This document shows, piece by piece, positions 40,101 through 43,100 of a DNA stretch of 64,000 bases; position 1 is the stretch's first letter; each line of letters begins with the position of its first letter. The position numbers were made by a program. The DNA is taken from NCBI RefSeq assembly GCF_048403405.1, contig NZ_CP183129.1, one strand, 5' to 3'. This stretch comes from Escherichia coli (GTDB taxonomy: Bacteria > Pseudomonadota > Gammaproteobacteria > Enterobacterales > Enterobacteriaceae).

Positions 40101-43100
40101 GGTCGAAGCAGGCAACTTGTGCTGGCGCAAACGGGTGAGAACCGTTTTTAGCAGTTGTTCTCCCGCCTGCTGTAAGCCCCACTGCCAGCACCAGTTTTGC
40201 CAGACCGGGGCAGGCATTCCTGAAAGGTATCCTGCCAGCACATCAAGGCGCTTTTCACTGTAGGGGGTGAGATAACAACCTGTAACGGCATCATCCAGTA
40301 AGAGCAATTCTGGCGTGTTAATTACCTGCAGACATTCGCGCCACATTTTTGCCAGTGCCGGAGCGTGCCAGCCACCGCAGACAACTAACACGTCGCCATT
40401 ATTTTGCTGCATCGCCCATCCAATCCAGCGGGCCATAAAGGCTTCGCGCTGACGATTGAGAGCATCTCCGGGGGAGTCGCCCCGCAGTTGGGCAAAATAG
40501 TGCGCAAGTGCAGAGGGTAATGCAGTTTGCTGGCTTTCATCTTCGAACAAGTGATCCCACAGGGTGTCGCTGTTATCCATGCGGGTGGCACGCAGCAGCA
40601 AGGTCTGGCTTTCCTCTTGCGTATCAGGCGAATCGTCCTCTTCTTCACTCTGCGCCCAGCAAGGCAAATCGATGAAGTAAGTTTGTGCCTGAATACGACG
40701 AGCGGCTTGTAGCGCCTGCCACTCCGGCGAAAATTCAGCAAATGGCGTCCAGGCACCACGCCCGGGGGCCGCACCGTCCTGATACTGGCAATAACTGTAA
40801 ATAGCTACCGGAAGCTGGTGAGCTAACAACAGTTCGTCTACCCGGTCATTAAAATCAGCCGGGCCTTCAATCAACACGTATCGTGGCCGCTGGCTTTCGA
40901 TTAACGATTTCACCAGCCGGGCGCAGGCCGGACTATGATGCCGGATGCCGACAATTAACGGCTCGCTCATGCATCTTTCCTCACGGCAGGCGGTGGCGAG
41001 CTTGATAATAAGCCTGCCAGTGAGCTTCTTTATGTGTGGCGACGCGCTGTTCGAAGTAACGGCGCAGACGCGCGCGATCTTCTTCGTTATCTTTGACGAT
41101 GGTTCCGGCAATACAGTCCACCAGGTCGGCAGGCTCCCCCGCGCGATTCGCTAAAAACCAGGCGCGGACACCCACAGCATGGGCCACGTTAACGGCTTCA
41201 GCGGTGGACATAATCGCTGTCAGTGTATCCATTGACGTTTTCTTTTCGCCGTTGGCACGCAGATCGCGGAACGTGCGCACCAGTAATTCCAGTACCGCGT
41301 CAGGCACTTTATGCGGAATACCGCTATGGGCCAGCAAACGCGCCGAAGCACTGGCAACCAGTTCCAGCTCCTGGGCGAAATCCATAATCGGAAAGACAGT
41401 TTCAAAATCGAAGCGACGCTTTAGCGCAGCACTCATTTCATTGACGCCGCGATCGCGGGTATTGGCAGTGGCAATAATATTAAAGCCTTCCCGCGCATAG
41501 AGCTGACTGGCTTCACCAGTGAGTTCCGGCACCGTCATTACCCTGTCAGAAAGCATACCTAACAGACAGTCTTGTACTTCCAGCGGTGTACGCGTTATCT
41601 CTTCAAAACGGACGATTTTGCCGTCGCGCATTCCCTGGTAAAGCGGGGCAGGGACCAGCGCTTCCGTTGATGGACCATGATTGATAAGCAGAGCGTAGTT
41701 CCAGCCGTACTTGATTTGATCTTCGGTGGTAGATGCGCCGCCCTGGATGGTTAACCCGGCATCGCCGCTAATAGCGGTTGCCAGTAATTCAGACAGGAGA
41801 GATTTTGCGGTGCCAGGTTCCCCCACCAACATCAAACCGCGCCCGGTGGCAAGAGTGACTAACATACGTTCGACAGCGGAGGGACTAATCACCACTTTAC
41901 GGCTAATATTTTGCGCGCTATCGCCAAGGATAAAAGCACGGGCCGCAGGCAAACTTAACTGCCAACCGGGCGGGCAAGGTGCGTTATCATTTTGTTTTAA
42001 TTTTGCCAGTTCATCGGCGTATAACACAGCAGCAGGCGGACGCTGCAGATGATTATTCTGCGGTGACATATATTCATCCCTGAAATGTATTAATGAAATA
42101 AACGATATTTTACGCGCAATAAATGTTTGGCGCATTAGTTGTTTGAGCGAAAAATATCTGGAAAGCAGATCACAGTAAATAAAAAAACCTGCTGGTGAGG
42201 CAGGTTCTTTTATTTACTATTTTCAGGCCCAACACCGCAGCCTGTGCAACATCGTGTTCCAACGAACGAATTATAACCATCGGTGGACCCCGTTGCAATT
42301 AAGATAATGAGATTTATAATCCAGACGGTTGGGACGTTGCGCCGGATCGGACCAATTTTAAGTCCTGGCTACCGGACGGGTGGTGCTGCAGGTGGTGCCC
42401 TGATCCGGAGTGCAACATCGTGGTCCAACATACGTAAACCAGTATCGACAGGCAGTGTAAGGGTAAGGTGCTGGTGTTGCGCTCCTTAATAAGGAGAGCG
42501 GATGGACACGCTGACACAAAAGTTAACCGTGCTCATTGCCGTACTGGAGCTATTAGTGGCTCTGTTACGGTTGATTGATTTGTTGAAGTAATGGGCAAAT
42601 TGAAACGCATCTAAGGGGGAATACCGTTTCCCCCTTTAATAAAGCTATTTTTCTATTTCTTGGTTGAATATATTCTGTAGTTCGCGATTAAAAATGGCTA
42701 TTACCGTTTCTGGTGATTCGCCCCGTAATTTTCGCTCATCAATAAACTCATCTCTTATATAAATCAACGCATCATTTATTAGCGGGTCGACATCCTCTCG
42801 ATCACGTTGATGAAATGTTGGATGTAGCCGGAATCGCTCCAGTCGGTAGACGGAACCTGTAAATAATTCAGAGCATTTATGGATCTCAAGTCTGAAGGAA
42901 AACGGATCTTCAGGTACAGGGACCTCATAATCGTAAATAGCAACCAGCTCTTTTTGCACGATCATCGCTTTTCCCGGTGGCAGGTCGTGTTAATAACGGG
43001 CAGTCGCATCACTGCCCGCTGTGTTTTAATGGAAAATGACGTCGGGTGCGCTTAACGCTTCACTCAAATCAAACACATCAAGTTCGGCAAAAGTGACAGA

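What the first reader, a model, noticed from the sequence alone, without database searches (positions are those of the whole stretch)
42181..42640. Unannotated type I toxin-antitoxin locus (zorO-orz-like) in the yehK-yehL intergenic region
A 29-codon ORF at 42502-42591 encodes a single hydrophobic helix (MDTLTQKLTVLIAVLELLVALLRLIDLLK) with a near-perfect RBS and a leader of about 174 nt. A near-consensus minus-strand promoter (TTGCAA, 17 nt, TATAAT) drives an ~80-nt transcript that ends at an intrinsic terminator; its 5' end is complementary (19 of 20 nt) to positions 42410-42429 of the toxin leader. The two promoters are back to back and share one palindromic -35 hexamer. This matches the architecture of the zor-orz system described in E. 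coli O157:H7 (small toxic peptide with a long 5' UTR, repressed by a divergent sRNA through limited complementarity). Here there appears to be one copy; an upstream copy of the pairing sequence at 42245-42263 is itself part of the sRNA gene. The ORF is below the 60-aa cutoff of the ORF track.
Basis: partly seen in the sequence, partly recalled or inferred. Interest (0 to 1): 0.6.

Follow-up and report, generated by a model that had tools for sequence, protein, structure and literature searches.

The report
Known zor-orz toxin-antitoxin locus of E. coli
This stretch is an intact single copy of the already published zor-orz type I toxin-antitoxin locus of E. coli (a 29-residue membrane toxin held in check by a small divergent RNA); it is real and missing from RefSeq annotation, but it is not new.

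Summary
The 29-codon ORF (42502-42591) encodes a peptide identical to Swiss-Prot ZorO of E. coli O157:H7. The minus-strand RNA gene (42263..42181) matches Rfam RF02083 'OrzO-P antitoxin' at 101 bits against a gathering score of 60. The two promoters share the palindromic TTGCAA hexamer. The RNA's 5' end pairs 19/20 with 42410-42429 of the leader, with zero matches expected by chance in 64 kb. The predicted mRNA fold reproduces the published one: +1..+23 pairs with the +73..+102 'EAP' region, and the RBS sits in a hairpin. One refinement: the sRNA specificity triplet is 'ACG', so the regulatory half is of the zorP/orzP type, while the peptide has the ZorO sequence. The locus lies between yehL and yehK as in O157. 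It is single-copy here, as in about 25% of E. coli. RefSeq records identical to the window annotate nothing there. The system, its copy-number variation and the K-12 orz-only remnant are all published (PMC3919570, PMC5397157, PMC11264685). Verdict: interpretation supported, already known, low interest.

The parts
42181..42263 (-). orz antitoxin sRNA gene (OrzP type), about 83 nt from the predicted +1 (G 42263) to the end of the U-tract
   Evidence: Rfam RF02083 OrzO-P hit at 42256..42181, 101.3 bits (gathering score 60), E 1.3e-15, full model 1-76. Predicted fold with terminal hairpin. It differs at 2 positions from the orz gene of the K-12-derived strain and the O157 yehL-proximal copy.
42244..42263 (-). 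5' seed of the sRNA (GUUGGAACACGAUGUUGCAC), including the V1 specificity triplet ACG
   Evidence: 19/20 complementary to 42410-42429. V1 'ACG' is the OrzP form, per PMC3919570.
42181..42206 (-). intrinsic terminator of orz: hairpin 42186-42206 plus seven U (42187->42181)
   Evidence: Hairpin reported (I1). U-tract read from the sequence. Paired in the Rfam consensus structure.
42270..42275 (-). orz -10 hexamer TATAAT
42293..42298 (.). palindromic -35 hexamer TTGCAA shared by the divergent orz and zor promoters
   Evidence: The same hexamers are reported as at least 99% conserved across zor/orz loci.
42315..42320 (+). zor -10 hexamer TATAAT (16-nt spacer)
42328..42637 (+). zor toxin mRNA: predicted +1 at G 42328, end after the terminator hairpin, about 310 nt
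   Evidence: Position relative to the -10. A 174-nt UTR places the RBS at +164..+169 as published. Published transcripts are about 310 and about 280 nt. The transcript ends are inferred, not measured here.
42328..42355 (+). first 28 nt of the leader, the segment removed in the active delta-28 form; predicted to sequester the EAP region
   Evidence: In the minimum-free-energy fold, +1..+23 pair with +73..+102. Published role in PMC5397157.
42400..42429 (+). EAP (exposed after processing) region, +73..+102, putative ribosome standby site; contains GGAGTG (42407-42412) and the sRNA target 42410-42429
   Evidence: The GGAGTG element is described in PMC11264685.
42479..42499 (+). hairpin that sequesters the Shine-Dalgarno sequence AAGGAG (42491-42496)
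   Evidence: Inverted repeat I5. Paired in both the full-length and delta-28 folds. Published in PMC5397157.
42502..42591 (+). zor toxin ORF, 29 aa, identical to ZorO
   Evidence: Exact match to 'Small toxic protein ZorO, ZORO_ECO57'.
42613..42636 (+). zor terminator hairpin (AAGGGGGAA-UACCGU-UUCCCCCUU) with a weak U-tail, 8 nt from the yehK stop codon
   Evidence: 9-bp stem in the folds. Conserved in all five copies aligned.

Best explanation
This is an intact, single-copy zor-orz type I toxin-antitoxin locus of E. coli. Two back-to-back sigma-70 promoters share one -35 hexamer. One drives a roughly 310-nt mRNA with a 174-nt leader and a 29-codon ORF for the inner-membrane toxin ZorO. The other drives a roughly 83-nt divergent sRNA. 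The full-length mRNA is poorly translated for two reasons: its first ~23-28 nt pair with the +73..+102 (EAP) region, and the Shine-Dalgarno sequence sits in a hairpin. Removing the first 28 nt exposes the EAP region, a likely ribosome standby site. The sRNA's 5' end pairs with the 3' part of that region in a 6+13 bp duplex with one mismatch. This blocks standby loading and triggers RNase III-dependent decay, so little toxin is made. The sRNA and target here are of the OrzP/zorP specificity type, and the peptide has the ZorO sequence. Shown here: all sequence elements, family membership, synteny, pairing, natural covariation of the pairing, and predicted folds. Inferred from published work on the EDL933 locus: transcription starts, processing, toxicity, and the repression mechanism.
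For: Peptide identical to ZORO_ECO57. Rfam OrzO-P hit at 101.3 bits against a gathering score of 60. Shared-hexamer promoters. 19/20 complementarity, unique in 64 kb, with 0 expected by chance; duplex -32.7 kcal/mol. The 6(1)13 pairing exceeds the experimentally sufficient 5(1)12 pattern and the rule of 17 nt with one mismatch. Three natural locus types carry compensatory changes: cognate sRNA/leader pairs keep 18-19 of 20 Watson-Crick pairs, while non-cognate pairs keep 13-15 with runs of 9 or fewer. The predicted fold pairs +1..+23 with exactly +73..+102 and sequesters the RBS at +164..+169, as in the probing data of PMC5397157. Same genomic slot as the tandem zorP/zorO copies of an O157-like genome. 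A full locus is present in 3391 of 5426 complete E. coli genomes. Published experiments show ZorO toxicity, OrzO rescue, RNase III dependence, Hfq independence and V1 specificity, translational control by the 5' UTR, and inner-membrane localisation with effects on the plasma membrane (abstract of PMC6669753).
Against: There are no expression data for this strain; the transcript ends and the delta-28 processing are transferred from EDL933. The experiments I read were done on the O-type pair. Repression by a P-type sRNA of a P-type leader is inferred from the pairing rules, not from a direct test that I saw. The simple terminator scan listed the orz hairpin only on the + strand and did not list the zor terminator, whose U-tail is weak. 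The physiological role of the system is still unclear in the literature.
Confidence: 0.95

Rival explanations
1. The sRNA is mainly a regulator of other genes, and zor repression is only one of its jobs or a secondary one. The same OrzP-type gene survives, with promoter intact and expressed, in about a third of E. coli that have lost the toxin.
For: The K-12-derived genome keeps the orz gene, both promoters and about 30 nt of the leader but lacks the ORF and the target site. About 1840 of 5426 genomes show only this partial match. PMC11264685 reports ~30% orz-only genomes with conserved promoters and a Northern signal for OrzPmg in MG1655.
Against: No other target is known; the paper states that no evidence exists for functions beyond toxin repression. 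Within this 64-kb window the only complement of the seed with 5 or fewer mismatches is the zor leader. The seed co-varies with its cognate leader across locus types, which is what a dedicated antitoxin would show. This reading does not exclude the main explanation.
Confidence: 0.12
2. The locus is a silent or decaying remnant: the sequences are present, but no toxin or no sRNA is made in this strain.
For: Copy number is highly variable and deletions are frequent at this site. Nothing is annotated here.
Against: Every functional element is intact and matches the published consensus: -35 and -10 hexamers, RBS, 29-codon ORF, pairing site, GGAGTG element and both terminators. The peptide is identical to the toxic reference.
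Confidence: 0.03
3. The short ORF and a 20-nt repeat coincide by chance in an intergenic region.
For: None beyond the small size of the features.
Against: 0 matches expected by chance against 2 observed. Rfam E-value 1.3e-15. Exact identity to a curated toxin. Conservation in thousands of genomes.
Confidence: 0

Closest known systems
zorP-orzP of E. coli O157:H7 EDL933 (z3290 locus; PMC3919570)
   Same: Same genomic slot next to yehL. Identical sRNA seed, including V1 'ACG', and identical leader target (19/20). About 97% identity over 504 nt to the yehL-proximal copy of O157-like genomes.
   Different: The peptide here has Thr3 (the ZorO sequence) rather than Ser3 (ZorP). The sRNA body has two substitutions. 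The terminator loop and the 3' flank resemble the O copy. There is no second copy downstream.
zorO-orzO of E. coli O157:H7 EDL933 (z3289; Swiss-Prot ZORO_ECO57; Rfam RF02083)
   Same: Identical 29-aa toxin. Same architecture, promoters, 174-nt leader, RBS hairpin and EAP logic.
   Different: The V1 triplet and surrounding seed differ ('GAA' in OrzO). This sRNA would form only 14/20 Watson-Crick pairs with an O-type leader, below the published threshold, so cross-repression is not expected.
OrzPmg, the orphan orz-only locus of E. coli K-12 MG1655 (PMC11264685)
   Same: Same sRNA gene, promoters and position; the sRNA seed is identical.
   Different: K-12 lacks everything from about +30 of the leader to just before the yehK stop codon, including the target site and the toxin ORF. 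The window has the complete pair.
tisB-istR1 and shoB-ohsC of E. coli (divergent type I systems with limited pairing)
   Same: Divergent sRNA, 18-21 nt of pairing far upstream of a sequestered RBS, 5' processing that activates the mRNA, and standby-site logic.
   Different: No sequence relationship was detected. Rfam assigned the RNA to OrzO-P only. The toxin is different and no LexA or CpxR control is described.

Membership tests
zor-orz type I toxin-antitoxin family (ZorO/ZorP toxins, OrzO-P sRNAs) | 29-aa hydrophobic Zor peptide | tested here: met
   ORF 42502-42591 is identical to ZORO_ECO57 and to the yehK-proximal ORF of an O157-like genome.
zor-orz type I toxin-antitoxin family (ZorO/ZorP toxins, OrzO-P sRNAs) | Divergently encoded sRNA that fits the OrzO-P covariance model | tested here: met
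   RF02083: 101.3 bits against a gathering score of 60, full-length match at 42256..42181 on the minus strand.
zor-orz type I toxin-antitoxin family (ZorO/ZorP toxins, OrzO-P sRNAs) | Conserved promoter hexamers (-35 TTGCAA, -10 TATAAT) for both genes | tested here: met
   The hexamers match those reported as at least 99% conserved.
zor-orz type I toxin-antitoxin family (ZorO/ZorP toxins, OrzO-P sRNAs) | sRNA 5' end complementary (at least 15 nt continuous, or at least 17 nt with one mismatch) to the leader's EAP region about 70-90 nt upstream of the RBS | tested here: met
   6(1)13 pairing at 42410-42429 = +83..+102.
zor-orz type I toxin-antitoxin family (ZorO/ZorP toxins, OrzO-P sRNAs) | 174-nt leader whose 5' end sequesters +73..+102, with the RBS in a hairpin | tested here: met
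   In silico only: the minimum-free-energy fold pairs +1..+23 with +73..+102 and pairs the AAGGAG. The +1 is inferred from the -10 position and from the published RBS numbering.
zor-orz type I toxin-antitoxin family (ZorO/ZorP toxins, OrzO-P sRNAs) | Chromosomal position between yehL and yehK | tested here: met
zor-orz type I toxin-antitoxin family (ZorO/ZorP toxins, OrzO-P sRNAs) | Both RNAs are transcribed; the toxin arrests growth when overproduced; the cognate sRNA rescues, dependent on RNase III | not testable with these tools
   Shown for the EDL933 zorO-orzO pair in PMC3919570, not for this strain or this P-type pair.
zorO-orzO subtype in the strict sense | V1 specificity triplet 'GAA' in the sRNA and a matching O-type leader target | tested here: not met
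   The sRNA reads ...GGAACACGAUG... (V1 'ACG') and the leader target is of the P type. Cross-pairing with an O-type leader is 14/20.
zorP-orzP subtype | V1 'ACG' sRNA with a P-type leader target; ZorP peptide (T3S) | tested here: inconclusive
   The sRNA seed and the target are identical to the P copy, but the peptide has Thr3, the ZorO sequence. The published survey sorts loci by whole-locus BLASTn score and finds the ZorO peptide in 72.5% of zor ORFs, so P-type loci encoding the ZorO peptide are probably common.

The most novel reading that the evidence does not exclude
The OrzP-type sRNA encoded here may have cellular targets other than the zor leader, so that the locus doubles as a trans-acting regulator. 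This would explain why the identical seed and promoter are kept, and expressed, in about a third of E. coli that have lost the toxin. A lesser variant is that this single copy, with P-type regulation, a ZorO peptide and an O-like 3' end, is a recombinant collapsed from a tandem pair.
Probability: 0.12. Interest if true: 0.4.

Novelty: already known. Interest (0 to 1): 0.1.

Why it matters
It matters mainly as an annotation point. A characterised toxin gene and its antitoxin sRNA, present in roughly 60% of complete E. coli genomes, are absent from the RefSeq annotation of every record I examined. Pipelines that rely on annotated features will therefore miss them. The first-stage reader recovered the full architecture from raw sequence, which is a good positive control for the scan. 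Nothing here changes what is known about type I toxin-antitoxin systems.

Tried and rejected
1. NCBIfam scan of the 29-aa peptide found no family. This is consistent with NCBI's PGAP annotation pipeline not naming the peptide and says nothing against homology.
2. I took strain M217 as the possible source of the window because its zor locus is 100% identical over 521 nt. This was rejected: the flanks are only 98.4-98.7% identical, and M217's yehL and yehM are pseudogenes while the window's are intact. Seven other genomes, including GN02461 and MS 69-1, show 100.0% identity over the 14 kb.
3. A position-by-position comparison with M217 failed because of indels and was replaced by BLAST.
4. RNAduplex of the whole sRNA against the whole mRNA gave -65.7 kcal/mol, but one of 500 shuffles did as well. 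The method ignores intramolecular structure, so it is uninformative. The 20-nt seed duplex and the mismatch scan are the useful measures.
5. The simple terminator scan missed the zor terminator and listed the orz hairpin on the + strand only. I relied on the folds and the Rfam structure instead.
6. A PADLOC scan of YehQ, YehP, YehM, YehL, YehK, YehI and one DUF4132 paralogue found no defence-system families, so there is no support for a known defence-island context.
7. There are no tRNA genes in the window.
8. I considered a chance ORF plus a chance repeat, and a decayed remnant. Both were rejected (see rival explanations).

Full report
**Observation**

The region was read directly and its ORFs were listed.
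- **ORF and RBS.** The 29-codon ORF lies at 42502-42591 (+) and encodes MDTLTQKLTVLIAVLELLVALLRLIDLLK. AAGGAG at 42491-42496 precedes it by 5 nt.
- **Promoters.** The consensus scan found exactly two promoter-like sites in 42050-42750. The + strand site is TTGCAA (42293-42298), a 16-nt spacer, then TATAAT (42315-42320). The - strand site uses the same palindromic hexamer read backwards, a 17-nt spacer, then TATAAT (42275->42270).
- **sRNA transcript.** The minus-strand transcript would start near G 42263. It would end in the seven-U tract (42187->42181) that follows the hairpin at 42186-42206, giving about 83 nt.
- **Pairing.** On the + strand the sRNA's first 20 nt correspond to 42244-42263. 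This 20-mer recurs with one mismatch at 42410-42429. These are the only two matches with up to 3 mismatches in the 64-kb window on both strands, and 100 shuffles gave none. The seed duplex is predicted at -32.7 kcal/mol at that site.

Only trivial corrections are needed: the zor spacer is 16 nt rather than 17, and the repeat starts at 42244.

**What it is**
- **The sRNA.** A scan of the whole window against Rfam gave a full-length hit to RF02083, 'OrzO-P RNA antitoxin family', at 42256..42181 (-). The score is 101.3 bits against a gathering score of 60.
- **The peptide.** An exact-sequence look-up found it in the public protein collection under the names 'Small toxic protein ZorO ... ZORO_ECO57' and 'Uncharacterised protein [Shigella flexneri]'.
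- **The flanking genes.** They are yehL (40981-42069, -) and yehK (42645-42965, -).
- **The O157 arrangement.** In an O157-like genome the same gap holds two tandem units. The yehL-proximal unit encodes MDSLTQ..., which matches the ZorP variant (T3S). The yehK-proximal unit encodes MDTLTQ..., which matches ZorO.

The window therefore carries a bona fide zor-orz locus in a single copy.

**Subtype**

I aligned the window unit with the two O157-like units and with the two units of strain 08-00022. The sRNA gene, the promoter region, the leader and the pairing site of the window are of the yehL-proximal (P) type.

The published specificity determinant V1 is 'ACG' in OrzP and 'GAA' in OrzO (PMC3919570). 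The window sRNA reads GUUGGAACACGAUG..., so it is OrzP-type.

The ORF lacks the P-copy substitutions: it has Thr3 and synonymous sites like the O copy. The terminator loop matches the O copy. This mix could reflect recombination between tandem copies. It could equally mean that the O157 P copy carries derived changes, and I cannot tell which. The published survey finds the ZorO peptide in 72.5% of all zor ORFs, so P-type loci with the ZorO peptide are probably common.

**Support for the pairing from natural variation**

Three locus types occur in the aligned genomes: P, O and a third type in strain 08-00022. Each has a different core in the sRNA seed and a matching change in its own leader.

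| sRNA / leader combination | Watson-Crick pairs of 20 | Longest run |
|---|---|---|
| Cognate | 18-19 | 12-13 |
| Non-cognate | 13-15 | 9 or fewer |

The non-cognate values fall below the experimentally determined requirement of 15 continuous nt, or 17 nt with one internal mismatch. The window's 6(1)13 pattern exceeds the 5(1)12 pattern shown to be sufficient.

**Mechanism**

With +1 at G 42328 the leader is 174 nt and the RBS falls at +164..+169. These are the numbers published for zorO (PMC5397157).

The minimum-free-energy fold of 42328-42645 pairs +1..+23 with +73..+102 (42400-42429). This is exactly the region the authors found protected in the full-length RNA and exposed after removal of 28 nt (the 'EAP' region). 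[quoted passage not shown]

The conserved GGAGTG element of the EAP is at 42407-42412. The distance from 42328 to the end of the terminator hairpin (42636) is about 310 nt, and about 282 nt after processing. This matches the ~310 and ~280-nt transcripts reported.

The mRNA's own 5' end (GUUGGGAC) and the sRNA's 5' end (GUUGGAAC) are predicted to bind the same GGUCCAAC at 42422-42429. The cis-inhibitory segment and the trans antitoxin would therefore compete for one site.

From the literature:
- Pairing blocks the standby site and induces RNase III-dependent decay.
- Hfq is not needed.
- ZorO localises to the inner membrane and affects the plasma membrane.

These steps are inferred for this strain, and for the P-type pair in particular.

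**Distribution and annotation**

A 521-nt query found matches in 5232 of 5426 complete E. coli genomes.

| Class | This survey (for the orz-only reading) | Published survey of 2,212 genomes |
|---|---|---|
| Essentially the whole locus | 3391 genomes | 25% one copy, 42% two copies |
| Only the first ~220 nt (orz plus promoters; orz-only state in the one example aligned) | about 1840 genomes | about 30% orz-only |
| No match | about 194 genomes | 3% |

The K-12-derived genome keeps orz, both promoters and about 30 nt of the leader. This is the published, expressed orphan OrzPmg.

None of the five RefSeq records whose annotation I examined carries a feature for the peptide or the sRNA. One of them is identical to the window over 14 kb. 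NCBIfam has no model that hits the peptide. 'Unannotated' is therefore correct for RefSeq, but the locus is in UniProt, Rfam and the literature.

**Comparison and verdict**

The locus meets every sequence-testable defining feature of the zor-orz family. The functional features (transcription, toxicity, rescue) cannot be tested here, but they are established for the identical peptide and for a sister sRNA. In the strict sense it is not the zorO-orzO subtype, because V1 is not 'GAA'. It is a P-type regulatory unit with the ZorO peptide.

The architecture resembles tisB-istR1 and shoB-ohsC, but no sequence relationship was detected. The system, its single-copy state and the orphan-antitoxin state are all published. 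The finding is already known and scores low on interest.

The only reading with some novelty that the data do not exclude is that the OrzP-type sRNA has further targets. I give this about 0.12.

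Noticed in passing
window 21770-21850 (+): Rfam RF03039 'Peptidase-S11 RNA' motif, 72.8 bits against a gathering score of 34.8. By correspondence with strain M217 it lies just upstream of pbpG (D-alanyl-D-alanine endopeptidase). 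It is not annotated in the RefSeq record examined.
   Followed up: no
L002 2431-2736 (K-12-derived strain), aligned to window 42136-42644: This genome retains the orz gene, both promoters and about 30 nt of the zor leader. It then jumps to a few bases before the yehK stop codon, so the toxin and the target site are deleted. This is the published OrzPmg orphan antitoxin. The sequence at the junction resembles the flank downstream of the O copy in O157, which suggests a deletion from a two-copy ancestor.
   Followed up: partly
L004 1919-3025 (strain 08-00022): This genome has an O-type unit in the yehL-proximal slot. Next to yehK it has a third specificity type (seed core GGCATCT, leader GGCGACT). 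Both units encode the ZorO-identical peptide. So the order and identity of the units in the tandem array are not fixed.
   Followed up: partly
window 42645-42965 (-), yehK: yehK is 106 aa here against 105 aa in the K-12-derived genome. In strain 08-00022 the corresponding CDS is 354 nt and is annotated as 'hypothetical protein'. The boundary of the variable zor-orz segment sits at the yehK stop codon, so the C-terminus of YehK changes with the zor-orz allele.
   Followed up: no
window 42328-42335 and 42256-42263: The 5' end of the zor mRNA (GUUGGGAC) closely resembles the 5' end of the sRNA (GUUGGAAC). Both are predicted to pair with GGUCCAAC at 42422-42429. The cis-inhibitory 5' segment and the trans antitoxin therefore appear to compete for the same site.
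   Followed up: partly
window 46668-50462 and 50475-54272 (-): Two further very large paralogues of yehI are intact here, of 1264 and 1265 aa, annotated as WGR/DUF4132 proteins. They lie between yehI and metG and share about 88% identity over ~200 nt at corresponding positions. Together with yehLMPQ (AAA ATPase, DUF5682, vWA, SWIM) they form a conserved cluster of unknown function. None of the seven proteins scanned hit PADLOC.
   Followed up: partly
L001/L005 (strain M217) against window 36000-50000: M217 and strain 167 share a 100% identical 521-nt zor-orz segment with the window. Their flanks are only about 98.4-98.7% identical, and in M217 yehL (frameshift) and yehM (internal stop) are pseudogenes. 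The zor-orz allele is thus shared across backgrounds that otherwise differ.
   Followed up: no
E. coli genomes, summary: Four of the 7082 places matching the locus are on plasmids, and some genomes hold up to four places. This is in line with the published report of a plasmid-borne two-copy locus and of rare three- and four-copy strains.
   Followed up: no
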